A stretch of DNA of 64,000 nt from a virus (IMGVR_UViG_3300025436_000002:106201-170200), one strand, 5' to 3'. Positions 29,477-48,955 are shown, counted from the first letter of the stretch. Translations and numbers: made by a program. The notes: generated from the letters alone by a model not told the origin.

Positions 29477-30245
29477 AAGTGATCTTCACATAGAATTCAA
29501 GAATCATGAGCCTGACTTATCCGACGTGCAAGTATACGTTATTGCAGGAGATTTAGGTCTATTTAAGAATGAAAAAAAATGGCTTATTGATCTAACTAAC
29601 AAGTATCCAAACGTGGAGATGGTTGTGGTTTCAGGCAACCACTCATTCTATGACACTAATATCGAAAAAGTAGATAGAGAATCGAGAGAGCTTTCTAAGC
29701 AATATGAAAGAATACATTATCTTCAAAATGATTCTATAGTTCTTAACGGGTTTAGGTTTATAACTAGCACTTTATGGACCGACTTCAATAAAGGCAATCC
29801 TACTGCGATGTACCTAGCCCAAGCTAGAATGAATGATTATAAACAGATAAGATATCATGGAGGAGCTTCTAGACTTACTCCATATAGAGTCGCTATATTA
29901 CATAAACAATCTAAGGATTATATATTTAAGACCCTCAATACTAGTGAAGAACCTTGCTTTGTCATATCCCACCATCGTCCTTATATAGAAAGAAATCACA
30001 TGACCGATGAGTTATCCCCAGCTTATGAAGTTGATTTACTTAAAGAGCTTGATAAATGTAAAAAACTGCCTATAGCTTGGTTCCACGGACATGATCACGT
30101 CTCAAGCACTAAGATAATAGAGTATGGGCATGGCTCTGTAGAATTTATATCAAATCAAAAAGGGTATCCTAATGAAGAATCTGGTTTTGATCCGAACTTT
30201 ATTTATATTTTAAATGAGGATGTTTTGGGATTAAGTAATGATTAA
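29460..30245 (+). CDS. Calcineurin-like metallophosphoesterase
   Basis: SDLHIE, AGDLG, GNHSFY, TLWTD, HH.P, HGHDH, N.KGY motifs. Confidence 0.9.
   Translation: MNLKIESDLHIEFKNHEPDLSDVQVYVIAGDLGLFKNEKKWLIDLTNKYPNVEMVVVSGNHSFYDTNIEKVDRESRELSKQYERIHYLQNDSIVLNGFRFITSTLWTDFNKGNPTAMYLAQARMNDYKQIRYHGGASRLTPYRVAILHKQSKDYIFKTLNTSEEPCFVISHHRPYIERNHMTDELSPAYEVDLLKELDKCKKLPIAWFHGHDHVSSTKIIEYGHGSVEFISNQKGYPNEESGFDPNFIYILNEDVLGLSND
30202..30212 (+). promoter_or_regulatory. Putative late promoter inside 3' end of phosphoesterase gene
   Basis: TTTATATTTTA 36 nt before 30238. Confidence 0.65.
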
Positions 30246-32175
30246 TAGAATAAATGAACTAATACATAAGTTATGGACTAATGAGAAAGTTACTAGAGCT
30301 CAACTACACGAGATGAGTTTTGGGATAGAACTTGAGATGAAACATGAAGACATGGATATGTCTGATTTTGGAGTAATGAGGAGAGATGATAAGAAATTCT
30401 TCAATTTAACTAAAAATTGGGATATACACCATGATGGTTCTCTAAGTGGAAATGGTACTGAATTTGTATCCCCTCCTATGCCTTTTGAAGAATTTATAGA
30501 AAAAATCCCCCAAGTCATAACTTATCTTAGAGATGAAGGTTTTTATGGTGATGATGAGTGTGGATATCATATAGGAGTTTCGTCCTCTTCTTTAAATCTT
30601 TCTAAAAATATGAGAGACATGTATGAAAAACTTGAAGATGAATATTCTGAGCTAGTTGCTACTATTTTAGCGTATAATTTAAACTCTAAGGGTTTATTCG
30701 CCCTTGGAGACATTGATAGACAGTCTGGGGAGTATACACAAGACTTGGTAGATACTATTCATATAGACAAAGATGAAGTCGGAGATTTTCTAAAAGATGT
30801 TGAAAGGAATGAGCTGACTCTTGGAGATATTATATCTAACTCTGATAGATTTGTACATGGGGTTGCTCATTTTAGACAAAAAGTAGACCAGAATATACAT
30901 CATGTCTCTATGACAAGAAGGGAGGACTATGTAGAATTTAGAGGCTTAGGGGGTAAAAAAGCTTTTGACAGTCTTAGACTTCCAGACTTTGTTAGAAAAC
31001 TCTGTGTTATCTCAGCTTCTCAGGCTTTGGGCAATATTAAAACTGATTATACTGAACGGGAGCTGTATAAAATATTAAAACCTTACATGAAAGGCATACC
31101 CGAAGTAGCCCATATCTTCCAAACACAATCCAAAGAGACTGAAGGAGCTTCTGGACTTTTAGGGATAATTAATTACTTAAAAGATAAACCTAACTTGAGA
31201 AAAACTGCTTCTAGGATGTCCGACATGACTTTTTCTAAGATGTTTAGAGAATACTTAGGAACAGTTAGACCTAATTCTTTAGAGTTCAAAAAGTTGATGG
31301 TGAGATTTCCGATAGATACTATATACATGTTGCTTAGTTATACTAGAGATTTTAAAGATCTGCTAGGTACTATCTCTGGAGATAAATTTCCTTTAGATAA
31401 AATGCTAGAAGTCTTAGATAGAGAAGGATCTTCCGATTCTAGATTATTTGGAAATATCATGGAAGCTCTTACTAAACTAAAAATAGTAACCCTAACGGAT
31501 AAACAACAACTTGATGTGGTTGATAGATTAAAAGGCGTGTCTGGCATACTTAAATACTTACCTAATGTGGGTCTAAATACATTAGTTTATCTCTTTGGTT
31601 CGGATAATGCAAACGATAGGTTTAATGCGTATCAATATCTTGAATTAAATAATAAGTTAAATCTAATTCCTAAGGAAGAGTTGTTAAAATTCTGGGATAC
31701 TCTATACGAAAAGGGACAGTGGCTGTCATTTAGAGATGGGGCTAAGAAAATATTAACTCCTGAGGAATACCTTACCAGATATCCTAAAGCTCTTCAAGAT
31801 AGGCTACTTCTCAGTGAGCCTGATGTTCTTACCTACGTTTTAGACAACTATGACAAATATAAAAACATGGGTCTCCCTTTCACAGGTGTTATAGTTTGGC
31901 TTGCTAATGATGCTTTAAAGGACGAAGTAGCTGAGAAAAATTTTATAAGGCTAACTGTCTTGAAACCAGAGTTATTATCTCAAATAGATTATATAAGTAG
32001 AGAAGTACAACTAGAAATAGTTAAACAAAGACCTGATGCTATATTATCCATAAAATCTCCCTACAAGGCAACTCTGAATAAAGTAAGAGAGCTTGGTGGA
32101 AAAGATGCAGATAAGTGGATTGAGACTGCTGCGACAGACTTTGGGTATAGAGATGTTATGGATGGTTTATTGTAA
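30238..32175 (+). CDS. Putative amidoligase (COOH-NH2 ligase, Amidoligase_2-like) paralogue 1
   Basis: FGIELE, DGSL..GTEFVSPP, CGYHIGVS, YVEFRGLGG; leader MINRINELIHKLWTNE. Confidence 0.8.
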   Translation: MINRINELIHKLWTNEKVTRAQLHEMSFGIELEMKHEDMDMSDFGVMRRDDKKFFNLTKNWDIHHDGSLSGNGTEFVSPPMPFEEFIEKIPQVITYLRDEGFYGDDECGYHIGVSSSSLNLSKNMRDMYEKLEDEYSELVATILAYNLNSKGLFALGDIDRQSGEYTQDLVDTIHIDKDEVGDFLKDVERNELTLGDIISNSDRFVHGVAHFRQKVDQNIHHVSMTRREDYVEFRGLGGKKAFDSLRLPDFVRKLCVISASQALGNIKTDYTERELYKILKPYMKGIPEVAHIFQTQSKETEGASGLLGIINYLKDKPNLRKTASRMSDMTFSKMFREYLGTVRPNSLEFKKLMVRFPIDTIYMLLSYTRDFKDLLGTISGDKFPLDKMLEVLDREGSSDSRLFGNIMEALTKLKIVTLTDKQQLDVVDRLKGVSGILKYLPNVGLNTLVYLFGSDNANDRFNAYQYLELNNKLNLIPKEELLKFWDTLYEKGQWLSFRDGAKKILTPEEYLTRYPKALQDRLLLSEPDVLTYVLDNYDKYKNMGLPFTGVIVWLANDALKDEVAEKNFIRLTVLKPELLSQIDYISREVQLEIVKQRPDAILSIKSPYKATLNKVRELGGKDADKWIETAATDFGYRDVMDGLL

Positions 32176-32924
32176 TGCTAAAAAGAATAAAAGAACTTTT
32201 AAAATTGAATGAAGCTACCCTAGAACAAGTGTTAAGTGTTACAGATAGGGACAGGCTTATTAAAACATGTATAGCAAATCTTGAAGTGAGTGGTGAGAGT
32301 CTTAGTCATTTCTATATGTATATTGATTCGGATACTGCTGAGGAGATAGCTGATGAATTAGGAGATTCCGAAGATGTCCATTCACTAGATGACCTGCTTA
32401 ACAAGTATAGTGATGACGAAGTAGTAAACACGAATGCCTTTAAACAGTTCGTATATACCAATACCGAAGCTAAACTTGATAGTGTAGTAGATGAGTTGGA
32501 GGATACTTTAGATTGGCGTAGAGATCATAGTTTCGTAAATCTGTATAGAGCTATTGGATTTTCTAGCTCTGGTAAATTTAATCGACTTACGGGTGAGCAT
32601 GGGGCTACTAACTTATCTTCTTGGTTAGAACATCTTTACGTCAAAGGTAAGCATGTAGGCATCTTCTGGGCTGATTCTTTTGATAAGGCTAAGGAGTTTG
32701 GAAACTTGAATGTTAGCGGAGATTTCTATATTCTAAAAACCAATGTTGAAAATAGATATATTGATTGGTATGAAACTATAAAACTTAGGATGGATTTAAC
32801 TCTTGGGGAGGAAAACGAGATAAGATTATTCAAAGGAACTCCTTTAACAATAGAAACTATATATGACGAAACTGGGGACGAAATAGATATATCCATATTA
32901 GAAGGGAAGAAACTGTATGCTTAG
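32175..32924 (+). CDS. ADP-ribosyltransferase-like protein with leader
   Basis: LYRAI...HVGIFWADS...EENEIRL (R...ExE pattern); leader MLKRIKELLKLNE. Confidence 0.55.
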   Translation: MLKRIKELLKLNEATLEQVLSVTDRDRLIKTCIANLEVSGESLSHFYMYIDSDTAEEIADELGDSEDVHSLDDLLNKYSDDEVVNTNAFKQFVYTNTEAKLDSVVDELEDTLDWRRDHSFVNLYRAIGFSSSGKFNRLTGEHGATNLSSWLEHLYVKGKHVGIFWADSFDKAKEFGNLNVSGDFYILKTNVENRYIDWYETIKLRMDLTLGEENEIRLFKGTPLTIETIYDETGDEIDISILEGKKLYA

Positions 32925-33291
32925 AAGAATTAAAGAAATACTAGATTACATTAAAGGGGACGTACATAAACAAGATTTAGAAGATATATTTCCCATGGTT
33001 AATAACGTATACTACCTAGATTATAACGGGGACTCTGAGTTTATATATGTACGTAAAGATGATGATACTTTTCATGTGGCTAAACATTTGGGAGGCATGC
33101 AAATGAGGGGAAGACACGGAGAGCTTGTTCCTCATGAAGTAAATGCTGACGAATTACTCTTGACAATACAACAATCTGATGCAAGTTTAGACCCTAGAAA
33201 TGGTGATAGGGAAGTCAGGATACAAGATACTCCCAAAGGTTATGACGTTACTCTTATAGAAATAGATAATGATATCTGGGAGCCTTTGTAG
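32917..33291 (+). CDS. Hypothetical protein with leader
   Basis: Leader MLRRIKEILDY. Confidence 0.7.
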   Translation: MLRRIKEILDYIKGDVHKQDLEDIFPMVNNVYYLDYNGDSEFIYVRKDDDTFHVAKHLGGMQMRGRHGELVPHEVNADELLLTIQQSDASLDPRNGDREVRIQDTPKGYDVTLIEIDNDIWEPL

Positions 33292-33292
33292 T

Positions 33293-33967
33293 ATGCTTAG
33301 AAGAATAAAAGAACTTTTAAAATTAAACGAAAAACAACAGACTCTCGACGGTTTTTGGGAAAATATAGATTGGTATAAGTTTGCTGAATGGACTAAAAGC
33401 AATATACCCGACTATATGTATGAAAACGAGAATCCCTTAGACTCTTTTGCGGAAGCGTATGTGGAAGACCACGATATCGACTTAAACGACTTAGATGATA
33501 ATGAGGATTATCAAAGTTGGTTAACGGGTGAATTAGCTTACGCATTAGAAGAAACTTATAGACTTGTAGATCATGCTGTGGGGAGTTCAAATCCTATATC
33601 TATTTACAGAGCTCTTAGAATATCAGGAGACTACTTAGAACATCTTAAAAACCAAGGTAAACATTTAGGTATCTACTGGACATGGGAAGAAAGTCTTGCT
33701 ACTGACTATGAAGGCTCCGAGTCAAGTAGGAATAGCTCTGGTGACTTCTACTTAATTGAGACGGAAGTCCCTCAGACCAATATAAATTGGAGAAATACCC
33801 TACTACAGAATTTTGTATCCCAAGGGGAGAGTGAAATTCAGTTATATAAAGGAGTCCCAATCAAAATTAAACGGATGTGGAAAGCTCCTAATAACTTAAC
33901 TGCTGTACCCAATAGGAAGGAATTAGAAGTTCCTGAAGAGATTAAGAATAAAGTATTTTTTGCCTAA
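33293..33967 (+). CDS. ADP-ribosyltransferase-like protein with leader (paralogue of 32175)
   Basis: IYRAL...HLGIYWTW...GESEIQLYKG; leader MLRRIKELLKLNE at ATG 33293. Confidence 0.55.
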   Translation: MLRRIKELLKLNEKQQTLDGFWENIDWYKFAEWTKSNIPDYMYENENPLDSFAEAYVEDHDIDLNDLDDNEDYQSWLTGELAYALEETYRLVDHAVGSSNPISIYRALRISGDYLEHLKNQGKHLGIYWTWEESLATDYEGSESSRNSSGDFYLIETEVPQTNINWRNTLLQNFVSQGESEIQLYKGVPIKIKRMWKAPNNLTAVPNRKELEVPEEIKNKVFFA

Positions 33968-33970
33968 CAC

Positions 33971-33999
33971 TTGACATACTAGTAAAAGTATGCTATCAT
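33971..33999 (+). promoter_or_regulatory. sigma70-like promoter for ncRNA
   Basis: TTGACA-N17-TATCAT with TG extension. Confidence 0.75.
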
Positions 34000-34005
34000 G
34001 TAATT

Positions 34006-34210
34006 ATTGGAGACGTTTTCTTAAGTTCTCGGTAGGAGGTAGCTACCATTAAGAGAGCAGAAGCGTTTCGGGATAAAATTAAGAAGAACGGTCACTATTC
34101 GCACCACTACCGACTGTATCTTGTATAAATACCTGATGTACCTTGTAGGGGCTGGCTGTCCTACTACATCCGCCTAGGGGCTAAAGAGAGGTTGTGCGAC
34201 CTCTCTTTTT
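34006..34210 (+). ncRNA. Putative structured small RNA of unknown family
   Basis: Bounded by promoter and terminator; no ORF of 60 aa or more; GC-richer than flanks; several complementary segments. Confidence 0.6.
34183..34210 (+). terminator. Intrinsic terminator
   Basis: aaagagaggt-loop-acctctcttttt. Confidence 0.85.
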
Positions 34211-34213
34211 ATT

Positions 34214-34266
34214 TGTAACAAATTATTAACGTACCCCTTGACTTGTACTAAACTACATGGTATACT
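34214..34266 (+). promoter_or_regulatory. sigma70-like promoter with TGTAA box
   Basis: TGTAA-N8-TAACG at 34214; TTGACT(34238)-N17-TATACT. Confidence 0.75.
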
Positions 34267-34291
34267 TCTAATTATAAAGGAGTTTTAGAAC

Positions 34292-34576
34292 ATGATTATA
34301 TTTCCTAAGTTAGATACTTTTTTAGTTGAAAATTCCACAAGAAAACATTTAACCTTATTCTCAAACATTAGAACTCACTCTAGGAAATATTGGGCTCTGG
34401 AGATGTACGATAGATTTATAGTATATGACTTTGAAGATTTTGAGGAATACCACTTCATTGCCTTAGACGATGGAAGATGTACAGCATCCGTATCCGTAAA
34501 GAATATATACTCCTCAATGAAGCAGTCCTTCAATAGCTCAGATAATTTAAAATGTATAGAGATAACTGAAAAATAA
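34292..34576 (+). CDS. Hypothetical protein whose C-terminal tag is cut off by a stop
   Basis: In-frame continuation after TAA reads LKKMLMCREMMK* (to 34615). Confidence 0.7.
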   Translation: MIIFPKLDTFLVENSTRKHLTLFSNIRTHSRKYWALEMYDRFIVYDFEDFEEYHFIALDDGRCTASVSVKNIYSSMKQSFNSSDNLKCIEITEK

Positions 34577-34782
34577 TTAAAAAAGATGTTAATGTGTAGA
34601 GAAATGATGAAATAGGAGATTAATTATGCCAGATATCGAAGATTGTGCTAATAGAGCATTCCTGTATAGTAAGAGGGTAAACCTCACTTCTAGTGAAAAA
34701 CGTATATGTAGATTAGAAGATGAAGTCAAGGTACTCAAGGAGTGTATCGAAGCCTTACTAACTGACAGAATAGGGGATTAAT

Positions 34783-35034: not shown

Positions 35035-35088
35035 TCTCGTTCTCCATAAAGATAAGAATAACCAATTGATTCTAAATACATGCCCTAG

Positions 35089-35099
35089 TTTATATTTTA
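35089..35099 (+). promoter_or_regulatory. Putative late promoter TTTATATTHTA
   Basis: ctagtttatattttaaatagga, identical to the site at 43048. Confidence 0.7.
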
Positions 35100-35128
35100 A
35101 ATAGGAAAAGATATGTAAGGATTAAATT

Positions 35129-35752
35129 ATGGATAGGGCACTAGGTAGGATTAAAAAGCTATGCGAGGATCTATCCTCTGATTTGGCTAACCATTATTTA
35201 TGGTATCGAAGTGTAGATCGAATCCCTAAGGACATTTACAGCTACATTATAGGTGCTGCTAGGAGTTTAACTTATGATATGATAGACGAACCCGAAGTAG
35301 CTGAAATATTAAAAAATGATGAGAGTCTTAGGGCTGTAAAGCTCATGGATTATCCTTTTAAGATAAAAAAAGAAAATACAGGTATGCAGAATTTTGGATA
35401 CGGTATCTACTTTGCCAGTAATTACAAGTGGGCTAGTCGGTATGGAAGTTTTACTTTCGTATCTCGAGTTATGCCTAAAGAGATAGCCGTAATAAAAGAC
35501 TTTCAATCCGAATGGGTTAAACTTTCTGGAGGATTAGGTACAGACATTGCTAACTACTTTCAAGAGATGGGAATTGACCTCCATAGTGAACAAGCTCCTT
35601 TATTTCCTAAACTTATTAAGAAGTTCGCAGGTAAGGATAAAAAAGCGTTACTAGTTAATAACTCATCTGACAGTATTGATGCACAACTTTGTGTATACAA
35701 TACGAGTGCGATATATACTAAATATCTTATATATAAAAACGGAGACTTATAA
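35129..35752 (+). CDS. ADP-ribosyltransferase-like protein with leader
   Basis: WYRSV...FGYGIYFASN...ASRYG...QLCVYN; leader LGRIKKLCE. Confidence 0.55.
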   Translation: MDRALGRIKKLCEDLSSDLANHYLWYRSVDRIPKDIYSYIIGAARSLTYDMIDEPEVAEILKNDESLRAVKLMDYPFKIKKENTGMQNFGYGIYFASNYKWASRYGSFTFVSRVMPKEIAVIKDFQSEWVKLSGGLGTDIANYFQEMGIDLHSEQAPLFPKLIKKFAGKDKKALLVNNSSDSIDAQLCVYNTSAIYTKYLIYKNGDL

Positions 35753-36264
35753 TGGAGGATAATTTCGTGGGACTTAATGACTTAAAAAGATTATTAAACA
35801 AAAGTAAAATAAATGAAGCTTCAACACTCAAAGTCTCTTTCAATTTAACAGACTTAGAAAATGTGGTATTAAAATTTGAAACAGGGGTTCTTCCAGTCGA
35901 ACGTCTTATAGAATTTCTAAGAAAAGAAATGGACGAAGCTCTCGAGAAAAGACAAGTCAAGGATAACCATAAGACAAGAGAAGATCAAAAGTTGGCTGAG
36001 GGCATGAAAACACATGCTCGTATTCTTTTTGCAGATGCTTTTGAAACTTTAGGATATGATGCAAATGACTCTTCCATAGTTAGTATGGTTGAGAATTTAA
36101 CCATACACTTTATAAAATTAAAAGTTAAATATAAAGATGCCGATGATACTACTACTGCAACTTCTGCTATTGAGGCAACATGGCATGCATCCTCAAATGA
36201 GTGGAGAGAAGTCTTAGATAGACTTAAAGCTACATTCGAGGGTGAGGTTACTAATGTTGAATAG
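35752..36264 (+). CDS. Hypothetical protein with leader
   Basis: Leader LNDLKRLLNKSKINE. Confidence 0.7.
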   Translation: MEDNFVGLNDLKRLLNKSKINEASTLKVSFNLTDLENVVLKFETGVLPVERLIEFLRKEMDEALEKRQVKDNHKTREDQKLAEGMKTHARILFADAFETLGYDANDSSIVSMVENLTIHFIKLKVKYKDADDTTTATSAIEATWHASSNEWREVLDRLKATFEGEVTNVE

Positions 36265-37217: not shown

Positions 37218-39743
37218 ATGCCTTTAGGTAATATAAAAAGATTTTTAAATAAAATTGGTAATATAAACGAAGTTCTTCCAAAAAAAGAAATGGCTCCGAT
37301 ACTTAAAAGTATCAAACTTGGTACTGAACTTGAAGTAATCCATGAAGGTGAAGAGCTTACTATAGAAGATTGGGTTGGTACTTTTCAGAATATGGAAGCT
37401 GGTGAGTCTGAATCTGTCGATAAGTATTCTGACATGAAAGATTATATGGAGCAAACCTATAATATATATAATTCCAGTAGGGTGGCTTCTAGGGCTAATG
37501 ATGAATGGGTTGTTCTAAAAGATTTTGGAAGTGAGCATGTTCATAGGAATGATGTAGTGTCATCATGGTACATTAGCCTTAATATAGAAGAGGGTAGGGG
37601 GAATCAATCTACAAGTAGTAGTATGAAACTGTATAACGATAAAACTAACTCTCTATATAAACTTAGAGATGGCTGGGCTAAAGTATTTGAAGACCCTAAA
37701 AATGAACACACTCTTTTAAGTCTTAACGATGTCATACACATGGAACATGGGGACCTTGATAAGATACTTGACTGGATAGAAGAGAATGTTACTAGCAAGT
37801 TCGATGAATTAGAGTATGATACTGTATTTGAAGAAGTGACTCTAGACGATGTACAAGATTACGAAAGTGAAGATGACGACGAATATCCAGAAGCTGACGA
37901 AGATATTGAAGATTTTCTCAGATATCTCGAAAATAATGGAGGAGTTAATGTCTCAGGTAGCTATCATGGTGCGGTATCTTCAAGTGGTTGGAGAATTGAA
38001 CCTGACAGTTCGTTGGGACATTATGGTATTGAAGTTATATCCCCACCCATGGAATATAAAAAGTTTATTCAGTTAGTTCCTAAGGTAATAGAAAGACTTA
38101 AAGATTTAGGATACGGAGCAACCTCTCTCTGCGGTTATCATATAGGTGTATCTTCTGACGAATTTAACATTTCTGAAGTTATAAGAGATAACTTCTATCA
38201 TTTCAGACATGAGGGTTGGAGTTCCTTAGTATCCGCTGTACTTGCAATGGGTCAAGAGTCTAAAGGTCTATTCTCTAAGGGAGATCCTAATAGATCAACT
38301 GGAAACTGGTCTGAAGATATCATGTCTCACTTACGAGGTGTTCACAAAGAGAGTACAACTGTTGACGATATTCTATATACAGATAAAATTAACATGAAGG
38401 ATTACATTAATAGTGTATTCTCTAAGAGTAGCCCTACTCATGCTAAAAACGTATCTTTAAGAAAAGATTATGTAGAGCTACGCTCTCTCGGAGGAACTAG
38501 TGGTTTTGAGTCCTTAAGCTCTTTATCCTCTCTTAAAGATATTGTCAACATAGCTATATCCCAGTTATTCCAAAAACCTAAAGATTATTCTAAGAGAGAG
38601 GTTTTAAAAATAATGAGACCTTACCTAGATAAACTTCTAGGTGAAGACGAGGAGGATGCTAAAGTAGAAAGTATGCTAGAGCTACTCAAACAACCTGATC
38701 CTTGGGAAAATAGAAAGATAATAAAACTTTGTAAGAAATACCCTAAAAAATATCTACAACCCGTCTTCAATTACATAAGAAAGAACTTTCAAGCTTCTAA
38801 TGTCATGAGCTTCCTATACTGGGTAACAAATAGATGGGATAATATAGATGACTACGAAGATGAGAGAGTTATAAAAAACTTCTTACAAGACAAGCTGGAA
38901 TTTATCATGAGTAATGTATCCTCAGATACTCCTAAAGCTAACTTATCCATTTTTAACTTCCTAACGTCAAATCTAGTAGTTAGTGGTAAAATTGAATCTC
39001 AGATATTGGAAAATCTAGTATCTTACATAGAAACTGCCAGAAATTCATGGGATGTGGCAGACGCCTGTGTGGTATTAAGAAACCTACCTATTATGTACAA
39101 ACCTGAAGGAGATAAAATATTTTCAGACCTAGTGGGTGATTATAGTTTCCCAATAAAAGCTAAGTTATACCTCATATCTTCTGATGAACATGGAAGACTT
39201 GAGAAATTAGGAGAAGGTCGAGCGAGTGTATTACTTGCAGAGATGCGACGTAACCTAGAACAAATTCATGCTACCTCCGTGTTTGATTACCCTAGAGATA
39301 CTAAAGCCATCTTACAAAGACTGCTATCCAATTTTGATAGTTGGAATACTGATATCTTATCAGATATATTGGTACTATCTGAAGAGTTTAATTTACAAGA
39401 TAGTATAGTTTCCCTAGTAGATAGCTTACCTAACTTAGAAAATGCCTTATCCAAACTAATGGACATTGACCAATCTAACAAGGAGAGAATTTTTGCTGTA
39501 TTTTTCAAACACTACTATGGAGGAGCTAATCAAGATATCATAGAAAAATATAAAGATATATTCCATACTGATCTTTATAAAGATGCAATCAAGAATCCGA
39601 GGGAAGTTGCTAGTATGGGACCTTTGCAGGTAGGGGATATGACTAACTACGGAAAGATTAAAGATATGTATGGGACTGGGAATTCAGTATCTTATTTAAT
39701 AGACGGTCAAATATATCATCATTCTAAAGTCCAAAGAATATGA
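37218..39743 (+). CDS. Putative amidoligase paralogue 2
   Basis: LGTELE, WRIEPDSSL..GIEVISPP, CGYHIGVS, YVELRSLGG; leader MPLGNIKRFLNKIGNINE. Confidence 0.8.
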   Translation: MPLGNIKRFLNKIGNINEVLPKKEMAPILKSIKLGTELEVIHEGEELTIEDWVGTFQNMEAGESESVDKYSDMKDYMEQTYNIYNSSRVASRANDEWVVLKDFGSEHVHRNDVVSSWYISLNIEEGRGNQSTSSSMKLYNDKTNSLYKLRDGWAKVFEDPKNEHTLLSLNDVIHMEHGDLDKILDWIEENVTSKFDELEYDTVFEEVTLDDVQDYESEDDDEYPEADEDIEDFLRYLENNGGVNVSGSYHGAVSSSGWRIEPDSSLGHYGIEVISPPMEYKKFIQLVPKVIERLKDLGYGATSLCGYHIGVSSDEFNISEVIRDNFYHFRHEGWSSLVSAVLAMGQESKGLFSKGDPNRSTGNWSEDIMSHLRGVHKESTTVDDILYTDKINMKDYINSVFSKSSPTHAKNVSLRKDYVELRSLGGTSGFESLSSLSSLKDIVNIAISQLFQKPKDYSKREVLKIMRPYLDKLLGEDEEDAKVESMLELLKQPDPWENRKIIKLCKKYPKKYLQPVFNYIRKNFQASNVMSFLYWVTNRWDNIDDYEDERVIKNFLQDKLEFIMSNVSSDTPKANLSIFNFLTSNLVVSGKIESQILENLVSYIETARNSWDVADACVVLRNLPIMYKPEGDKIFSDLVGDYSFPIKAKLYLISSDEHGRLEKLGEGRASVLLAEMRRNLEQIHATSVFDYPRDTKAILQRLLSNFDSWNTDILSDILVLSEEFNLQDSIVSLVDSLPNLENALSKLMDIDQSNKERIFAVFFKHYYGGANQDIIEKYKDIFHTDLYKDAIKNPREVASMGPLQVGDMTNYGKIKDMYGTGNSVSYLIDGQIYHHSKVQRI

Positions 39744-43089: not shown

Positions 43090-45633
43090 ATGATTAATAA
43101 AATTAAAAATATACTAAATGAGTTAGCTCATCGTAACTCTATAAACGAGATACTTCCTAAAAAACAACTTGATAAAATACTTCCTAATCTTATACTAGGT
43201 ATTGAGATAGAAGTAATACATGAGAGTGGGGAGAATGTTTGGGAAGCTGAGGACTCGAACACAGTATCTAGAAGGATTCAGAGATATCAAAATGACATTG
43301 GAGAGTACAAATCAGATATCAAGGATCTAGAACGTACTGCAACTCCCATTGGAGCTGAACTCTATGAGGAGGACAGTGAAGTTTGGATGGATGCTATCTT
43401 AACTAAGCAGGATACACTCATAGATGAAATTGCATACAACGAGAGGAAGATAGACGAGACCCGAGCTGACACTTCAAAACTTCAAAGAGAGATTGCTATG
43501 CAAGGAACTCCTATCACCCCAGATGAAATAAAAACTAGAAAATGGTATATGTCTCGTATAGAGTATCTCGATAAATTTATTGATGGTTTAGAGAATGAAA
43601 TATATGTTAAGAAACAAGATTATAAACGCCTAGATGCTGACTACACTGTTGTTCAGAATATTAAACGTCTGGAGAAAAAAATAGCTGAATATACTCAAAA
43701 GATTAAAGATATTGAAACTGAGGAAGAGTCTGATAATTCTATTGAAAGTCTAGTAAAGAACTCTAGCATTGCCTCTATACTTGATGAGTCCAGTCCTATC
43801 GGATGGGAAATATTTCATGGGTACCATCATGGTAGAGACTTTAGAGGTTGGAGGATTGAACCTGACGGTTCTCTAGGTAATTCGGGTGTTGAATTTATCT
43901 CTCCTAAGATGCCTTATGGAGATTTCATAGAGTATATTCCAAAAGTAGCTACTGCCTTAAACGATAACGGATTTCTTGCTGAGGATGGGAGAACTGGACT
44001 ACACATAGGAGTCTCATCTAAGAAACTACATATAGTTCGTAAGATAGAAGATGATTTTGCTTTTTATAGGGGAAAAGGTCTTTCTCAACTTATGGCTTTA
44101 CTCTTAACGACTCAGAAAGAGCAGAGAGGACTCTTTGTAAAAGGAGAGCCTAGTAGAGAGTCTTCTGGATATTCTAAATCCATTACAGATATTATTGGTA
44201 AAGCATTAGGTCATTTGACTCCAGAAGATGATTATACCCTAGAAGACTTAATATATACAGATAAGTTTGAATCCAATAAATCTTTGAGTAGTCTTAAAGA
44301 GAGTGTCTCAGGTTTCGTTCGTGAAATGTTCAATAAGTCTCACTATACTAATGTGTCTATTCGAGATGAGTATGTTGAAGTTAGATCACTTGGAGGCGTT
44401 AATGGGTATCTAGCAATTCAAAGTGAGTCTTCCCTCAGAGAGATAATAGCCATGATTACTACTCAACTATTTTCTGAGGCTGAGATGCCGTCAACTAAAG
44501 AACTTGTAAGTATAGTTCGTTCTTTTCTACCTAAGAGCAGTCGAGGTAATAAAGATAGTCTTTCTCAGGAGTTTAATTTCTTAAAAGCAAACTCAGACAG
44601 TGACGGATCCAACACTGTCTCTGAAATACTTAAAATATTTAAAAACAAGAGTCCTAATCTATTAGTAAAACTCCTCAATAAGATAAAATTAGGGGATGGG
44701 ATCGTTACAGCTCTCTTTGAGTATAATAAATTTGGTACTCTGCTAGAATCTCCAGAATTTGTAGATCATCTTTTAGAGTATCCAAAAAACTATAATCGTA
44801 CTCAAGCATTCCCTTGGAGCAAACTCGATATGGATAATTTTGTCGCTTTAATGAAGAATAATAAGATATTCGGAGAAATCTATCCTAAAGATCAAGAGTA
44901 TTTAATAACTAGGTTACTAGGTAGTACTTATTTTTTGGGAGAACTGGGAGATAATCCTAACCTTACTCAATACATTTCTAATACCAAGAATGGAGATAGA
45001 CTTAATAATATAATTGTCAAGCTGGGAGGATTTGGAAATAGTAAGCTATATGAAGTAAAAGATATATATGACGTACTACCTAAAAGTAGTAAAATTAATG
45101 TACTAGGCGATTTATTCTTTAGTCGTCAATATAATTCTGAGATTAAAAATGACAGTGAGGCTATGGACATTATTTTAGACCCATCCAACGAGAGGTCTAT
45201 CCTTATGAAAATAAATAGATCCGCAACCTTTGAAGTTGTGGAAGCTGCTAAAGATGTTGATATTTTATTCAAATTTTCTGACGAGGTAAAAGATAGAATA
45301 CTTCTTAAAGTGTGGGAAGGTCTAGCAGTCGAGTCAGTGCCTCCCGTATTTATAGAAAATTTAGATAGTAAAATAAAAGATTATCTTTTAAGAAATAAAA
45401 GTGACTTCTTTGAAGGAAAACCTGTATATCTATCTAGGCTAGTAAGTTATGGAGAACTTACAGACTATCAACTTAAAAAGGTTCTAGATACTATAGATAG
45501 GTATGAAACCTCTGAGAATATATACTTAGTTCCAAGCTTAAAGAGGGCTTTGAAAAAAGTACTCAATGAAGTTGGAGATTTAAGTGGAAGTAACATTCGT
45601 AAAATAAAAGCTTTGTTAGATATGGAGGTATAG
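43090..45633 (+). CDS. Putative amidoligase paralogue 3
   Basis: LGIEIE, WRIEPDGSL..GVEFISP, TGLHIGVS, YVEVRSLGG; coiled-coil insert; leader MINKIKNILNE..SINE. Confidence 0.8.
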   Translation: MINKIKNILNELAHRNSINEILPKKQLDKILPNLILGIEIEVIHESGENVWEAEDSNTVSRRIQRYQNDIGEYKSDIKDLERTATPIGAELYEEDSEVWMDAILTKQDTLIDEIAYNERKIDETRADTSKLQREIAMQGTPITPDEIKTRKWYMSRIEYLDKFIDGLENEIYVKKQDYKRLDADYTVVQNIKRLEKKIAEYTQKIKDIETEEESDNSIESLVKNSSIASILDESSPIGWEIFHGYHHGRDFRGWRIEPDGSLGNSGVEFISPKMPYGDFIEYIPKVATALNDNGFLAEDGRTGLHIGVSSKKLHIVRKIEDDFAFYRGKGLSQLMALLLTTQKEQRGLFVKGEPSRESSGYSKSITDIIGKALGHLTPEDDYTLEDLIYTDKFESNKSLSSLKESVSGFVREMFNKSHYTNVSIRDEYVEVRSLGGVNGYLAIQSESSLREIIAMITTQLFSEAEMPSTKELVSIVRSFLPKSSRGNKDSLSQEFNFLKANSDSDGSNTVSEILKIFKNKSPNLLVKLLNKIKLGDGIVTALFEYNKFGTLLESPEFVDHLLEYPKNYNRTQAFPWSKLDMDNFVALMKNNKIFGEIYPKDQEYLITRLLGSTYFLGELGDNPNLTQYISNTKNGDRLNNIIVKLGGFGNSKLYEVKDIYDVLPKSSKINVLGDLFFSRQYNSEIKNDSEAMDIILDPSNERSILMKINRSATFEVVEAAKDVDILFKFSDEVKDRILLKVWEGLAVESVPPVFIENLDSKIKDYLLRNKSDFFEGKPVYLSRLVSYGELTDYQLKKVLDTIDRYETSENIYLVPSLKRALKKVLNEVGDLSGSNIRKIKALLDMEV

Positions 45634-45636
45634 AGA

Positions 45637-47385
45637 ATGAGTTTAGAAAATATTAGACAACTTAGTAAAGGACTTTTAAATGAAGGTCTTAATAGAAATG
45701 TATATCAAAAGATTATTAAAGATATCGAACTAGGTATTGAGCTTGAGGTTATTTATAATGGGGATAACATTTATAGACATGGCGGAGACTCTGATGAGCA
45801 AGATGCTGTGATAGATTTCAGTTCTGACCTGTCTTACTTCAAAGGTCAACTTAAAGCTTTTGAGGAGATAGCTGATTTCTTCTATGACATGTTAAAGCCA
45901 GATACTTTTAAATATCTGAGATCTAAGGGCGAGAAGTATGTCCCACATATTACAGAGTTTAGTTCAAATTTTGAAGGTTCTTTATATCGTCTTAAGAATG
46001 ACGTTGAATCTGAGCTTGACGAACGTATACAAGAGTGTGAAGACATCTATGATACATATGAAAGATATATACCAGAGATTGAAGATATGCCCAACAAATA
46101 TTTTCTTGAATATACTGAAGTGCCTTATGGTGAAGGACATGGAAACTTTACCTATCCAGAGGATGCGGAAGTTACTTATGAAAAAGAGATAACTGAGGCT
46201 AAGGGTAAGTTGTTAGATGTACTGGGAGATCGTCTTATTGAATTATATAATCAAAAATATGAACTAGACCCTGCTAAAAAGAATACTCTTCATGCTGTCG
46301 AATTAACTATAGATGACTATTCTGGAGGAGGTAGTGAGGTAGGTAGTGAGGTAGGTAGTGAAGGAGGTGTTGATCCTGATGACGTAAGACGTTATCTTGA
46401 AGATACTACTGCTGGAGAACTCATGACTGAATTTGAGGTTGAAGGTTTAGGTCAATGGAGTTATGAAACAGATAGTTCCCTTAATGAGGGAGGGGTTGAA
46501 TTGGTATCCCCTGTTGTAGGTTTTGATGATTTCGTAAATTTAATACCTCAACTCTGTAATGCTCTGAATGCAGAATCTTTTGAATCTGATGAATCTTGTG
46601 GTTATCATATAGGCTTGTCTAGTTACAACTTTAATATCCAAGATATGATTAAACAGATTATGGATTACTATAAAGCTAAAGGTTATAACTTATTAACTTC
46701 TTACATAATAGCTACTCAACAAGGGTATAAAGCTACTTATAGACATAATGATAAGTATAGTAGGGACGAAACTACTTCCTATGCAGAATCATTGATGAGT
46801 TGGGTAGGTGGCCATCGTCTAAGAAGTAAGAGTTTTGATGAGATACTACACTCTAATGAATTTGATACAGAAGTGCTTAAATTTATGAACAGTAAGTATT
46901 CAAATACAAACTTATTGCATAAAAACTATGTAGAACTTAGGGTTCTGGGGGGCGGAAAAGGTTTTAGAGTTCTTAGAAATGAAAGTATGCTAAGAAAATA
47001 CCTATATGATGCTATCTCACAAGTTTATGGAGGTATTGATTTTGATTCCGAAGGTAAAGTTATTGTCAAAGAAGTGTCTGCTAAAGAAATAGTTAAGCTA
47101 GTTGACTTTTATGTTAGGGGTATTAATTATAAAGGAGCTCCTTCTAGTAATCCTACTTCTCAAAGTCACTTGGATAAGTCTAAAGAATATAAAGAGAAGA
47201 GAAAGACTGCTCAATGGAATAAGGGAGTTGAAAAAGCTAAAGAATCTACCCCTATAAAAGTTGGAGATATAACTAATCTAGGAAAAGTCACGGAGATTCT
47301 TAAAGGTGGAGAACAGTACGTAATCAATGGTGTAATACATAGTGCACGTAATGTACGTAGTTTAGAAGACGAGGTTCCATTTTAG
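45637..47385 (+). CDS. Putative amidoligase paralogue 4
   Basis: LGIELE, TDSSL..GVELVSP, CGYHIGLS, YVELRVLGG; leader MSLENIRQLSKGLLNE. Confidence 0.8.
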   Translation: MSLENIRQLSKGLLNEGLNRNVYQKIIKDIELGIELEVIYNGDNIYRHGGDSDEQDAVIDFSSDLSYFKGQLKAFEEIADFFYDMLKPDTFKYLRSKGEKYVPHITEFSSNFEGSLYRLKNDVESELDERIQECEDIYDTYERYIPEIEDMPNKYFLEYTEVPYGEGHGNFTYPEDAEVTYEKEITEAKGKLLDVLGDRLIELYNQKYELDPAKKNTLHAVELTIDDYSGGGSEVGSEVGSEGGVDPDDVRRYLEDTTAGELMTEFEVEGLGQWSYETDSSLNEGGVELVSPVVGFDDFVNLIPQLCNALNAESFESDESCGYHIGLSSYNFNIQDMIKQIMDYYKAKGYNLLTSYIIATQQGYKATYRHNDKYSRDETTSYAESLMSWVGGHRLRSKSFDEILHSNEFDTEVLKFMNSKYSNTNLLHKNYVELRVLGGGKGFRVLRNESMLRKYLYDAISQVYGGIDFDSEGKVIVKEVSAKEIVKLVDFYVRGINYKGAPSSNPTSQSHLDKSKEYKEKRKTAQWNKGVEKAKESTPIKVGDITNLGKVTEILKGGEQYVINGVIHSARNVRSLEDEVPF

Positions 47386-47386
47386 A

Positions 47387-48955
47387 ATGAGTTTAGAGAA
47401 TATAAGACAACTTGGAAAAGGACTTTTAAACGAAGGTCTTAATAGAAATGTTTATCAAAGAATCATTAAAGATATAGAACTCGTTATTGAACTTGAAGTT
47501 ATTTATGAGAACGATTTGATGGGTGGGGATGATTTATCCTCTGGGCAGGATTCTTATTTGGACGACATCTATATTGGGGATGATGCAGACTCTTTCAATG
47601 CTAAAATAGTAGAGTTTAACGATTATATAGATACTATTTACCATATTCTAGGAAACCAATGTTTTGACTACTTACACGAGAAAACTAACATATACCTTCC
47701 TAATGATGTAGAGGAACTAGATACTAATATTAGTGGAGATAGTCATAGCCTTCTAAATGAACAAAAATCTGAAATAGATAAGAGACTTAATGAATGTGAA
47801 ACCATAATAGAAGACTATAATAAATACTTAAAAATATTTAAAGATATACCTGACGAAGCTTGGATTGACGACACTGGATTAGAAGGCGAAGAGCTCCTAG
47901 AGGCTAAACAAAAAGACTTTGAAGATTTCCTACTATATGTGCATAATTTAAGTAATATTTTAGATACCCTCAAATCCCTAAAGGCAGAGTTATTAATGGG
48001 TATTGAAATGATAATTGAGCAACCAGTTTCTGATAACATCGGGAATGGGAGTGGGCGTGACTCTGACGAATCTCAAGCTGATCTTGTAATGAATGATATA
48101 GAACATACTGGACCTGTAAGACTTATGAGGGAAATGGATGAATTTGATATTAGTGGTAAGAGATCATGGGAATTCGTAGATGACGGTTCTTTGAGTTCTG
48201 GAGGGGTCGAGATGGTATCCCCAGTAGTATCCTATAAAAATTTTATTGATTATATTCCTAGAATATGTACGTCTTTAGCTGAGAATGGATTCCATGCTGA
48301 TAAATCTTGCGGTTATCATATAGGATTGTCCAGTAGTTCCTTTAGTCTCCCAAGCCTTATAAGCGATACAATAGAACATTATGGAAAGCTCGGATACAAC
48401 AAATTAACATCTACTATCATAGCTACTCAACAAGGTTATAAAACTGTCTTTAGACACAACAATCCAGAACGAGATGAAAGTTATAGGTACACTATATCTC
48501 TTTTAGACCATGTTATCTTTGCTACTTCATATCAGGATAGTATGACGGGAGATACTCTTGATGCTATTAAGAATTCCAGTCTTGATGATCTACTCCACTC
48601 TAATAAATTCGATGCCTCTGTTGCTAAGTTCCGTATCGAAAAATTTACAAACGTAAATAGACTCCACAATAATAAATATATTGAGCTCAGAGTACTTGGA
48701 GGTGTTGAGGGATTCGAGATTCTCAAAGATGAGAATAAACTAAAGAGATATTTATATGATGCTATCTCTCAAGTCTATGGAGCGGTTGATTTTGATAAGG
48801 CTACTGGAGAAGCTAAAATTAAAGAGATGTCTGCTAACGAGATAGTTAAGCTTATGGATTTCTATTTAAGAAAAGTGAGACAGGAGAGAGAGCCTGATAA
48901 TGTTTATAAACAAAATAGGGAAGCTATTAAACTTAGAAATAATGGAGGATTGTGA
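47387..48955 (+). CDS. Putative amidoligase paralogue 5 (recent duplicate of paralogue 4)
   Basis: LVIELE, DDGSL..GVEMVSP, CGYHIGLS, YIELRVLGG; leader MSLENIRQLGKGLLNE. Confidence 0.8.
   Translation: MSLENIRQLGKGLLNEGLNRNVYQRIIKDIELVIELEVIYENDLMGGDDLSSGQDSYLDDIYIGDDADSFNAKIVEFNDYIDTIYHILGNQCFDYLHEKTNIYLPNDVEELDTNISGDSHSLLNEQKSEIDKRLNECETIIEDYNKYLKIFKDIPDEAWIDDTGLEGEELLEAKQKDFEDFLLYVHNLSNILDTLKSLKAELLMGIEMIIEQPVSDNIGNGSGRDSDESQADLVMNDIEHTGPVRLMREMDEFDISGKRSWEFVDDGSLSSGGVEMVSPVVSYKNFIDYIPRICTSLAENGFHADKSCGYHIGLSSSSFSLPSLISDTIEHYGKLGYNKLTSTIIATQQGYKTVFRHNNPERDESYRYTISLLDHVIFATSYQDSMTGDTLDAIKNSSLDDLLHSNKFDASVAKFRIEKFTNVNRLHNNKYIELRVLGGVEGFEILKDENKLKRYLYDAISQVYGAVDFDKATGEAKIKEMSANEIVKLMDFYLRKVRQEREPDNVYKQNREAIKLRNNGGL

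What the first reader, a model, noticed from the sequence alone, without database searches (positions are those of the whole stretch)
30238..48955. Five amidoligase paralogues with hypervariable inserts
SEEN: all five keep ExE, DxSL, E[FVLM][VI]SP, GxH[IV]G and YxExRxLGG motifs. Between the first ExE strand and DxSL the insert is about 25 aa in 30238 but about 210-230 aa (acidic or coiled-coil) in the other four. 45637 and 47387 are near-identical at their 5' ends yet unalignable in the insert, and C-terminal extensions differ. ESTABLISHED: COOH-NH2 ligases (glutamine synthetase/PafA fold) join a carboxylate to an amine. INFERENCE: a constant catalytic core with swappable substrate-recognition inserts, each paralogue modifying a different host target (e.g. 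glutamylation or crosslinking of defence proteins).
Basis: partly seen in the sequence, partly recalled or inferred. Interest (0 to 1): 0.78.

Follow-up and report, generated by a model that had tools for sequence, protein, structure and literature searches.

The report
Five late-expressed phage amidoligase paralogues

Summary
Five genes (30238, 37218, 43090, 45637, 47387) are the only Amidoligase_2 (PF12224) genes in this 170-kb myovirus. All five keep every catalytic motif.

Two structure models place the core in the glutamine-synthetase fold (Z 9.9-10.8), with PafA, Dop, YbdK and GshA also listed. One paralogue has 26 residues between the ExE and DxS strands. The other four have 211-235 residues that are helical and strongly acidic.

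One detail is wrong. The inserts of 45637 and 47387 can be aligned (28% identity, E 5e-16).

The inserts are not unique to this genome. In relatives the same site spans 23-294 residues. In two near-identical related phage contigs, divergence is concentrated in the insert, with a second short divergent patch near the 3' end of the gene.

New context:
- The genes sit behind the promoter-like motif that precedes the portal, capsid and baseplate genes.
- They share an N-terminal leader ending in [LI]-N-E with an ART-PolyVal protein and several unknown proteins.
- The phage encodes a T4 gp21-type protease.

My reading is that these are head-packaged, injected ligases, analogous to T4 Alt. Their targets are unknown. 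This is a new variant of a known kind.

The parts
30238..32175 (+). P0001, compact amidoligase paralogue (645 aa): leader, GS-fold core with a 26-aa ExE-DxS spacer, ~360-aa helical-repeat C-terminal domain
   Evidence: Pfam PF12224 at 28.5 bits. Motifs. The C-terminus is ARM/HEAT-like in the ESM Atlas model, TM 0.57-0.59. Orthologues are P0014 and P0015.
37218..39743 (+). P0002, insert-bearing paralogue (841 aa)
   Evidence: PF12224 at 28.1 bits. In the model the core has pLDDT 80-96, and the ten best structure matches are all GS-family enzymes at Z 9.5-10.8.
43090..45633 (+). P0003, insert-bearing paralogue (847 aa); first gene of the P0003-P0004-P0005-amidase operon
   Evidence: PF12224 at 15.8 bits, below the 22-bit cut-off. 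The core is 43% identical to P0002 and all motifs are kept.
45637..47385 (+). P0004, insert-bearing paralogue (582 aa)
   Evidence: PF12224 at 31.3 bits. Motifs.
47387..48955 (+). P0005, insert-bearing paralogue (522 aa)
   Evidence: PF12224 at 25.3 bits. Model pLDDT 74.8. The core matches glutamine synthetases at Z 9.9.
37338..37988 (+). Insert of P0002 (217 aa, net charge -37)
   Evidence: No detectable similarity to the other inserts. The model of this stretch has low confidence.
43216..43848 (+). Insert of P0003 (211 aa, net charge -17, coiled-coil-like)
45751..46455 (+). Insert of P0004 (235 aa, net charge -35)
   Evidence: Homologous to the P0005 insert, E 5e-16.
47501..48166 (+). Insert of P0005 (222 aa, net charge -37): three long helices
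   Evidence: Helices 64-100, 119-153 and 167-211 with block-mean pLDDT 80-94.
30238..30285 (+). N-terminal leader of P0001, ending in T-N-E
37218..37271 (+). N-terminal leader of P0002, ending in I-N-E
43090..43149 (+). N-terminal leader of P0003, ending in I-N-E
45637..45684 (+). N-terminal leader of P0004, ending in L-N-E
47387..47434 (+). N-terminal leader of P0005, ending in L-N-E
30202..30212 (+). Late-type promoter-like motif TTTATATTTTA, 36 nt upstream of P0001
37179..37189 (+). The same motif, 39 nt upstream of P0002
43048..43058 (+). The same motif, 42 nt upstream of P0003
27248..28729 (+). ART-PolyVal ADP-ribosyltransferase with the same leader and the same promoter motif (27212-27222)
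   Evidence: Pfam PF18760, E 4.7e-47. Leader. Motif.
32175..33967 (+). Three leader-bearing ORFs of unknown family, co-transcribed downstream of P0001 (32175-32924, 32917-33291, 33293-33967)
   Evidence: Leaders. No Pfam or PHROG family.
35129..36264 (+). Two further ORFs of unknown family behind the same motif (35089), with leader-like N-termini as read by eye. 35752-36264 has I-N-E within its first 25 residues; neither ORF matched the stricter leader regex.
   Evidence: N-termini. I-N-E in 35752-36264. Neither in the regex hits. Motif. No family.
48952..49494 (+). Amidase_2 endolysin-like gene overlapping the stop codon of P0005
   Evidence: Pfam PF01510. phrog_5867 endolysin. Same arrangement in related contig L016.
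50994..51461 (+). GGACT (gamma-glutamyl cyclotransferase-like) gene, 2 kb downstream
   Evidence: Pfam PF06094, E 1e-23. GGACT lies near or is fused to amidoligases elsewhere.

Best explanation
The five genes encode catalytically intact ATP-dependent carboxylate-amine ligases of the glutamine-synthetase fold (Amidoligase_2).

They are transcribed late, from the same promoter type as the virion genes. Each starts with a 16-20-residue amphipathic leader that ends in [LI]-N-E. I infer that this leader works like a T4 capsid-targeting propeptide. It would bring the enzymes into the prohead core, be cut off by the phage's gp21-type (S77) protease, and leave mature ligases that are ejected into the cell with the DNA, as T4 Alt is.

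In the cell they would use host ATP to form amide bonds, probably gamma-glutamyl-type, on host molecules. The shared core does the chemistry. The fast-evolving acidic three-helix insert between the first two core strands, and the variable helical-repeat C-terminal domains, give each paralogue its own partner.

Shown here: the fold, the motif conservation, the insert anatomy and its localised divergence, the shared leader, the shared promoter motif and the presence of the protease. Inferred: packaging, cleavage, injection, the bond type and the nature of the targets.
For: Fold and catalytic residues:
- PF12224 hits in all five, four above the cut-off.
- GS-family enzymes fill the top ranks for both models: Z 9.9 for P0005 and Z 10.8 for P0002. 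PafA (8.4), Dop (8.1), YbdK-like (8.2) and GshA (8.1) are also listed.
- E-x-E, D-x-S, E, G-x-H, R and E-x-R-x-G-G are invariant in 25 diverse relatives.

Late expression:
- TTTATATTHTA occurs 14 times in the window against 1.37 expected.
- It lies 30-80 nt upstream of the portal, major head protein and baseplate-wedge genes, and also of P0001, P0002, P0003 and the ART gene.

Leader and protease:
- The leader is shared by the five ligases, ART-PolyVal, at least three unknown ORFs in the window and two ORFs inside the structural module.
- The same leader sits on unrelated ORFs next to amidoligases in four other phage contigs.
- The prohead protease is Peptidase_S77.
- The major head protein has V-N-E at residues 63-65, and its PHROG homology starts at residue 61. 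This parallels the 65-residue gp23 propeptide of T4 (PMC9026906).
- SPN3US ejection-protein paralogues likewise have identical N-termini but diverged bodies (PMC5694885).
- ART-PolyVal is a domain of proteins predicted to be injected (PMC5512222).

Relatives:
- A distant relative fuses SLT, LysM and two amidoligase domains in one 2288-aa protein.
- In Porphyromonas phages the amidoligase gene lies in the head module, after the portal and adaptor genes.

Insert as variable module.

Gamma-glutamyl chemistry: GGACT lies nearby here, in L016 and in Bacillus phages, and is fused to an amidoligase in one protein.
Against:
- The promoter motif is called 'late' only because it precedes structural genes. 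It also precedes a patatin gene, and the endolysin-like gene lies in a motif-driven operon; neither carries the leader.
- [LI]-N-E within the first 25 residues is only about 2.6 times enriched genome-wide: 13 seen against 4.9 expected.
- Conserved 5' ends could also reflect recombination junctions. Synonymous divergence in the P0004/P0005 leader is lower than in the rest of the gene (pS 0.46 against 0.72-0.74).
- Amidoligase is not among the domains catalogued in polyvalent injected proteins (no occurrence in PMC5512222).
- In LUZ24-like podoviruses the family sits among early genes (PMC3890496).
- I could not read model coordinates, so whether the insert lies near the active site is unknown.
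Confidence: 0.45

Rival explanations
1. The ligases are late cytoplasmic enzymes that are not packaged. They would work with the adjacent Amidase_2 and the nearby GGACT on peptidoglycan peptides, its precursors or other gamma-glutamyl compounds. This would resemble the 'peptidoglycan modification cassette' proposed for LUZ24-, phiEco32- and PSA-HP1-type podoviruses, for example to block superinfection or to prepare lysis.
For: - Amidase_2 overlaps the stop codon of P0005, and the same order is kept in L016.
- GGACT lies 2 kb downstream.
- The amidoligase-GGCT association recurs in Bacillus phages and as a fusion protein.
- The literature proposes this role (PMC5498523).
- One relative is fused to SLT and LysM.
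Against: - The cassette partners GATase_6 and ATP-grasp_4 are not found in the genome.
- A cell-wall role does not explain five paralogues, large acidic helical inserts and solenoid tails.
- It does not explain a leader shared with an ADP-ribosyltransferase.
- L016 is syntenic overall with this phage, so the shared gene order may only reflect common ancestry.
Confidence: 0.2
2. The proteins are mainly internal head (core or inner-body-like) structural proteins. The acidic helical inserts would serve head assembly or DNA packing. The ligase activity would be secondary, or would act on the phage's own proteins, for example by cross-linking before DNA packaging.
For: - The leader, the late promoter motif and the S77 protease are the same as for the best explanation.
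- Paralogue families with conserved propeptides are typical of head proteins in giant phages (PMC5694885).
- The insert keeps its charge and helicity but not its sequence.
Against: - All catalytic residues are invariant in all five paralogues and across distant relatives. That argues for selection on catalysis.
- Localised diversification of the insert between near-identical phages looks more like an arms-race interface than a scaffold.
- The compact paralogue P0001 has no insert.
Confidence: 0.12
3. The ligases build a DNA or nucleotide hypermodification, or another small-molecule product. Amidoligases are found in thymidine-hypermodification gene clusters.
For: - Amidoligase domains co-occur with 5-HMUDK and aGPT-Pplase genes in viral contigs (PMC8989533).
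- The best structure matches are small-molecule enzymes: GS and gamma-glutamylmethylamide synthetase.
Against: - The genome has no thymidylate-synthase-like dUMP hydroxymethylase and no 5-HMUDK. The record is about 90% complete.
- Late expression and the leader shared with an ART do not fit a replication-linked pathway.
Confidence: 0.05

Closest known systems
Pfam Amidoligase_2 (PF12224), the phage and bacterial COOH-NH2 ligases of the glutamine-synthetase-like superfamily (annotated 'amidoligase' in LUZ24-like, Bacillus and Porphyromonas phages)
   Same: - HMM match over the central core.
- The same order of acidic, His and Arg motifs.
- GS fold.
- Association with a GGCT/GGACT gene.
   Different: - Typical members are about 290-390 aa, single-copy and, in LUZ24-like podoviruses, early genes.
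- Here there are five copies of 522-847 aa. Four have a 211-235-aa acidic helical insert after the first strand. There are also long variable C-terminal domains, a shared N-terminal leader and a late-type promoter.
- The GATase and ATP-grasp partners are not found.
Glutamine synthetase, gamma-glutamylmethylamide synthetase, GshA and YbdK (GS-fold small-molecule ligases)
   Same: Best structural matches: Z 10.8 with 197 aligned residues at rmsd 4.1 for 9qur, and Z 10.4 for 2ojw. The catalytic motif order E-x-E ... E ... H ... R ... E-x-R is the same; the residue equivalence rests on my own knowledge of GS.
   Different: - There is no GS N-terminal beta-grasp domain.
- Sequence identity is 10-13%, and a sequence profile finds no PDB relative.
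- The large insert and the solenoid tail have no counterpart.
PafA and Dop (Pup ligase and depupylase)
   Same: GS-fold catalytic domain that starts directly with the ExE strand and acts on proteins. Structural matches at Z 8.4 (4bjr) and 8.1 (9cku).
   Different: No sequence-level relation was found. No Pup-like partner was sought or found. These matches score lower than the GS matches.
T4 Alt and internal proteins IPI-III, and the ejection-protein paralogue families of phiKZ and SPN3US (capsid-targeting propeptides cut by a gp21-type protease)
   Same: - S77 protease in the genome.
- A short N-terminal leader ending in a hydrophobic-x-Glu motif.
- Leaders conserved between paralogues whose bodies have diverged.
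- An ADP-ribosyltransferase in the same set.
- Expression signal shared with head genes.
   Different: - No sequence homology to Alt or the IPs.
- The cargo is a ligase family not reported as virion cargo in the papers I could search.
- Packaging and cleavage are inferred, not shown.

Membership tests
Pfam Amidoligase_2 (PF12224) | HMM score at or above the 22-bit gathering cut-off | tested here: met
   P0001 28.5, P0002 28.1, P0004 31.3 and P0005 25.3 bits. P0003 scores 15.8, below the cut-off, but its core is 43% identical to P0002.
Glutamine-synthetase-fold COOH-NH2 ligase superfamily | GS-type catalytic fold | tested here: met
   Two independent models. GS-family chains hold ranks 1-7 (P0005, Z 9.2-9.9) and ranks 1-10 (P0002, Z 9.5-10.8), with 179-208 aligned residues. 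PafA, Dop, YbdK-like and GshA are also listed. Foldseek alone gave nothing significant.
Glutamine-synthetase-fold COOH-NH2 ligase superfamily | Conserved metal- and phosphate-binding residues (E-x-E, acidic pair, His, Arg, E-x-R) | tested here: met
   These residues are invariant in all five paralogues and in 25 diverse relatives. Residue-by-residue equivalence to GS was not checked on coordinates.
Glutamine-synthetase-fold COOH-NH2 ligase superfamily | ATP-dependent amide-bond formation | not testable with these tools
   This needs an enzyme assay.
PafA/Dop pupylation enzymes | Pup-like small protein substrate and PafA-specific sequence family | not tested
   Only fold-level similarity was found, at Z 8.1-8.4. 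No search for a Pup-like gene was made.
T4-type capsid-targeted, protease-processed ejection proteins | gp21-family (Peptidase_S77) prohead protease encoded by the phage | tested here: met
   Genome 17937-19331: PF03420 at 36.1 bits and phrog_207.
T4-type capsid-targeted, protease-processed ejection proteins | Short N-terminal propeptide ending in a hydrophobic-x-Glu cleavage motif, shared by unrelated cargo proteins | tested here: met
   The leader is present on the five ligases, ART-PolyVal and further ORFs. It is also present in four related contigs. The major head protein has V-N-E at 63-65. This is sequence pattern only.
T4-type capsid-targeted, protease-processed ejection proteins | Co-expression with head genes | tested here: inconclusive
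   The shared upstream motif TTTATATTHTA is strongly over-represented and precedes the portal, capsid and baseplate genes as well as the ligase genes. No transcript data are available.
T4-type capsid-targeted, protease-processed ejection proteins | Presence in virions with a processed N-terminus | not testable with these tools
   This needs virion mass spectrometry.
Podovirus gamma-glutamyl amidoligase / peptidoglycan-modification cassette | Class II glutamine amidotransferase and ATP-grasp partners | tested here: not met
   GATase_6 and ATP-grasp_4 have no match in the genome, while the controls rang in 14 and 13 of 14 genomes. The record is about 90% complete.
Podovirus gamma-glutamyl amidoligase / peptidoglycan-modification cassette | Second ligase of family COOH-NH2_lig (PF14395) | tested here: inconclusive
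   No match was found, but the control rang nowhere.
Podovirus gamma-glutamyl amidoligase / peptidoglycan-modification cassette | Gamma-glutamyl cyclotransferase gene nearby | tested here: met
   GGACT at 50994-51461, E 1e-23.
Thymidine hypermodification gene cluster | dUMP hydroxymethylase (thymidylate-synthase family) and 5-hmdU DNA kinase | tested here: not met
   PF00303 has no match (control rang in 10 of 14 genomes). PF18723 has no match, with a weak control.
Diversity-generating retroelement target | Reverse transcriptase and a template repeat of the variable region | tested here: not met
   No RVT_1 match. No second copy of any insert in the genome.

The most novel reading that the evidence does not exclude
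This would be an unrecognised class of capsid-packaged, DNA-co-injected effectors. A T4-like targeting leader would load a battery of five GS-fold ligases, together with an ADP-ribosyltransferase, into the head. On injection the same amide-forming chemistry would be aimed at different host proteins. The aiming parts would be a recombining, hypervariable, strongly acidic helical insert (possibly a nucleic-acid mimic that docks on DNA-binding defence proteins) and variable solenoid tails.
Probability: 0.2. Interest if true: 0.85.

Novelty: new variant of a known kind. Interest (0 to 1): 0.62.

Why it matters
In the papers I could search, phage amidoligases have been annotated for more than a decade, yet I found no demonstrated substrate.

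This locus offers a concrete and cheap test: virion mass spectrometry for the five proteins and for N-termini that start after [LI]-N-E. It also offers a natural experiment, because one catalytic core is paired with five different insert and tail combinations, and the insert is a localised diversification hotspot between near-identical phages.

If the enzymes are injected and modify host proteins, they would add ATP-dependent amide ligation to the known repertoire of phage take-over chemistry, which currently includes ADP-ribosylation and AMPylation. The leader could also serve as a portable packaging signal for this phage group.

Tried and rejected
Searches that found nothing useful:
- Megablast of the region and tblastn of P0005 against 50,697 phage records gave no match.
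- The pattern-based search of IMG/VR found no relatives.
- Foldseek against the PDB gave nothing at E <= 0.001. YbdK and several GS chains appeared only as weak rows.
- Sequence-profile searches of the PDB returned only designed helical bundles and coiled coils that match the insert.
- ESM Atlas feature searches gave no usable hit for the C-terminal domains of P0001 or P0003. P0003 has no Atlas model.
- P0002 has no relative in the word-indexed protein search.

Analyses that did not work or were inconclusive:
- Adding the short N-terminal fragments to the core alignment misaligned them, so I dropped them.
- hhalign of the P0002 and P0003 inserts against the P0004/P0005-type insert profile and against each other scored no better than shuffled or reversed controls. 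Common origin of all inserts is therefore neither shown nor excluded.
- The P0002 model has low confidence in the insert and the C-terminal half, so the insert folds could not be compared.
- dN/dS for P0004 against P0005 is uninformative because synonymous sites are saturated.

Ideas rejected:
- A DGR mechanism: no reverse transcriptase and no template repeat.
- Thymidine hypermodification: the partner genes are absent.
- The canonical podovirus cassette: the GATase and ATP-grasp partners are absent.

Not attempted: complex prediction, because no specific binding pair is claimed.

Full report
WHERE THIS IS. The window is the last 64 kb of a 170.2-kb IMG/VR virus record that is about 90% complete. 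The record encodes a tail sheath, portal, baseplate wedge, a gp21-type prohead protease and a major head protein, so it is a large myovirus. Almost all genes are on the + strand, and GC content is about 34%.

THE OBSERVATION.
- The five ORFs are at 30238-32175 (P0001, 645 aa), 37218-39743 (P0002, 841 aa), 43090-45633 (P0003, 847 aa), 45637-47385 (P0004, 582 aa) and 47387-48955 (P0005, 522 aa).
In a joint alignment the invariant columns include E31, E33, D66, S68, E75, H111, R161, E233, R235, G238 and G239, in P0001 numbering.
- The distance from the ExE strand to the W-x4-D-x-S-L strand is 26 aa in P0001 and 217, 211, 235 and 222 aa in the other four.
- A Pfam scan of the genome and a profile built from the five proteins both find exactly these five copies.
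- One detail is wrong. The inserts of P0004 and P0005 align along their whole length at 28% identity, E 5e-16.
- The inserts of P0002 and P0003 show no detectable similarity to that type or to each other. Profile comparison scores no better than shuffled controls.
- The C-terminal domains are also mutually undetectable, apart from a ~40-70-aa tail shared by P0002 and P0004.

FOLD AND CATALYTIC COMPETENCE.
- All five match Pfam Amidoligase_2. Four are above the gathering score. P0003 is below it, but its core is 43% identical to that of P0002.
- The AlphaFold model of P0005 has mean pLDDT 74.8, and the P0002 core has pLDDT 80-96.
- Both models were aligned to 48,161 PDB representatives. For P0005, glutamine synthetases hold ranks 1-7, with 2ojw at Z 9.9.
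- For P0002 the ten best matches are all GS-family enzymes. The top one is gamma-glutamylmethylamide synthetase 9qur at Z 10.8, with 197 residues at rmsd 4.1. PafA (Z 8.4), a YbdK-like protein (8.2), Dop (8.1) and several GshA enzymes (7.7-8.1) are also listed.
- Foldseek alone found nothing significant, and sequence profiles find no solved relative.
- The motif residues stay invariant in an alignment of 25 diverse relatives. I therefore read all five as active ligases. The equivalence of these residues to the GS metal and phosphate ligands rests on my knowledge of GS, not on a superposition.

THE INSERT.
- In the P0005 model the insert forms three long helices (64-100, 119-153 and 167-211) with block-mean pLDDT 80-94. 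It matches only generic helical bundles.
- An exhaustive profile search of 1.84 billion representative proteins found 973 relatives at E <= 1e-3 and 21 at E <= 1e-30.
- In the close clade both forms occur: compact, with the core starting near residue 83-91, and insert-bearing, with the core starting at 185-300.
- Over 68 relatives in which both landmarks could be placed, the spacing runs as a continuum from 23 to 294 aa. The site is a family-wide hotspot for length variation and is not peculiar to this genome.
- Across 16 insert-bearing proteins, mean pairwise identity is 17% in the insert, 42% in the core and 50% in the leader plus first strand. Every insert is strongly acidic, with net charge -15 to -46, while the cores are near neutral. 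Length class, helicity and charge are kept, but sequence is not.

HOW THE INSERT EVOLVES.
- Between P0004 and P0005 synonymous sites are saturated in the insert and the core (pS 0.74 and 0.72) but not in the first 38 codons (pS 0.46). Non-synonymous divergence is 0.66 in the insert against 0.39 in the core.
- For three close orthologues from other phages (P0007, P0008, P0009), insert dN is 3-7 times core dN.
- The most telling pair is P0008 and P0009. Their contigs are 98-100% identical over about 3.4 kb, except for nt ~146-770 of the ligase gene and a short patch at nt ~1448-1540. The first segment is the insert, where identity falls to 72-94% and there is an 81-nt indel.
- Synonymous divergence jumps from 0.008 in the core to 0.145 in the insert. 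That points to import of a diverged allele by recombination, not to point mutation in place.
- There is no reverse transcriptase and no template copy of any insert, so a DGR is excluded.

EXPRESSION AND THE SHARED LEADER. These leads came from earlier notes of this scan, and I tested them.
- The motif TTTATATTHTA occurs 14 times in the window against 1.37 expected and 34 times in the genome. It nearly always lies 30-80 nt upstream of a start codon.
- It precedes the portal, major head protein and baseplate-wedge genes. It also precedes the ART-PolyVal gene, P0001, the ORF at 35129, P0002, the patatin gene and P0003.
- P0003, P0004, P0005 and the Amidase_2 gene are packed head to tail as one operon.
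- Each ligase begins with an amphipathic leader of the form M-x-x-[RK]-I-[KN]-x-[LI] that ends in [LI]-N-E. P0001 is the exception, ending in T-N-E.
- The same leader is on the ART-PolyVal protein (27248) and on ORFs 32175, 32917 and 33293. ORFs 35129 and 35752 have leader-like N-termini by eye. Two ORFs inside the structural module, at genome 28968 and 35186, also carry it.
- In four other phage contigs the amidoligase and its unrelated neighbours carry the same kind of leader behind a TTTATATT motif. The Glu and the Leu two residues after it are invariant among 16 relatives. Conservation is therefore at the protein level.
- The prohead protease belongs to Peptidase_S77, the T4 gp21 family.
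- The major head protein has V-N-E at residues 63-65, and its homology to other head proteins starts at residue 61.
- In T4, gp21 removes a 65-residue propeptide from gp23 and short N-terminal capsid-targeting sequences from Alt and the internal proteins, which are then ejected into the cell (PMC9026906).
- In SPN3US, ejection-protein paralogues have identical N-termini although their bodies have diverged (PMC5694885). P0004 and P0005 show the same pattern.

WHAT IT MOST LIKELY IS. I read the five proteins as late-made, head-packaged, protease-processed and injected amide ligases, in a set that also includes an ADP-ribosyltransferase.
- Support from elsewhere: a 2288-aa relative joins SLT, LysM and two amidoligase domains.
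- Several giant relatives carry two amidoligase domains in one chain.
- In Porphyromonas phages the gene lies after the portal and adaptor genes.
- ART-PolyVal is a hallmark domain of proteins predicted to be injected (PMC5512222).
- The likely chemistry is gamma-glutamyl-type amide formation. A GGACT gene lies 2 kb downstream here, near the ligases in L016 and in Bacillus phages, and is fused to an amidoligase in one 944-aa protein.
- The C-terminal domains look like alpha-solenoid repeats, which are typical binding scaffolds.
- Targets remain unknown. That the insert selects them is an inference from its position in the core and its evolutionary behaviour.

RIVALS.
- A late cytoplasmic role in cell-wall peptide or gamma-glutamyl metabolism fits the adjacent endolysin-like amidase and the GGACT gene, and it fits published proposals (PMC5498523). 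However, the GATase and ATP-grasp partners are missing, and this role does not explain the leader, the paralogue number or the variable domains.
- A mainly structural head role fits the leader but not the strict conservation of the catalytic residues.
- DNA hypermodification lacks its partner genes.

NOVELTY. The family and its presence in phages are known. The new elements are the five-fold expansion, the large acidic insert as a defined and recombining module, and the link to a capsid-targeting-type leader and a late promoter. The scan had already noted the leader and the motif on this same DNA. I found no paper that reports amidoligases as virion cargo.

Noticed in passing
window 20351-26843, 36846-37172, 42029-42439, 55660-56043, 61396-61602: Many small ORFs of 64-136 aa with unrelated bodies end in the same C-terminal tag, roughly K-[YF]-L-M-x-x-E-L-[LG]-K followed by the stop codon. 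This is visible in the ORF listing and was also noted by earlier readers of this genome.
   Followed up: no
window 28730-29476 and 50251-50922: HNH endonuclease genes sit inside otherwise coherent operons. The first (HNH_3 plus AP2) lies between the ART-PolyVal and metallophosphatase genes. The second carries HNH plus DUF5661. They look like homing-endonuclease insertions.
   Followed up: partly
L010:10545-14525 (genome coordinates): A 1326-aa ORF matches both the terminase large subunit and HNH endonuclease families. This may be a terminase interrupted by an intein or an endonuclease insertion.
   Followed up: no
window 40332-41255: A patatin-like phospholipase gene lies behind the same late-type promoter motif (40300) but has no N-terminal leader.
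   Followed up: partly
window 29460-30245: A calcineurin-like metallophosphatase gene overlaps the start of P0001, and the P0001 promoter motif lies inside its 3' end. A metallophosphatase is also present upstream of the ligase pair in L016.
   Followed up: partly
window 58035-59309 and 60318-61394: There is a DUF2201 metallopeptidase/VWA protein and a MoxR-like AAA ATPase. The same DUF2201 protein occurs at the end of related contig L016.
   Followed up: no
window 20828-22898: An RNA ligase (PHA02142 OB-fold plus RNA_ligase) and an MT-A70 methyltransferase lie upstream of the ligase region.
   Followed up: no
contig holding P0072 (no DNA fetched), gene at locus coordinates 18499-21333: A 944-aa protein fuses GGACT, AIG2_2 and Amidoligase_2 domains. 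On the same contig a 2288-aa protein fuses SLT, LysM and two amidoligase domains.
   Followed up: partly
L021:1001-2770 versus L020:676-2367: Two phage contigs that are 98-100% identical over 3.4 kb differ almost only in the amidoligase insert (nt ~146-770, with an 81-nt indel) and in a patch at nt ~1448-1540 near the 3' end of the gene.
   Followed up: yes
L023 (Bacillus phage 035JT001, record 32804-41883): A 288-aa amidoligase, a gamma-glutamyl cyclotransferase and a poly-gamma-glutamate hydrolase are annotated within 9 kb of each other, downstream of the lysis genes.
   Followed up: no
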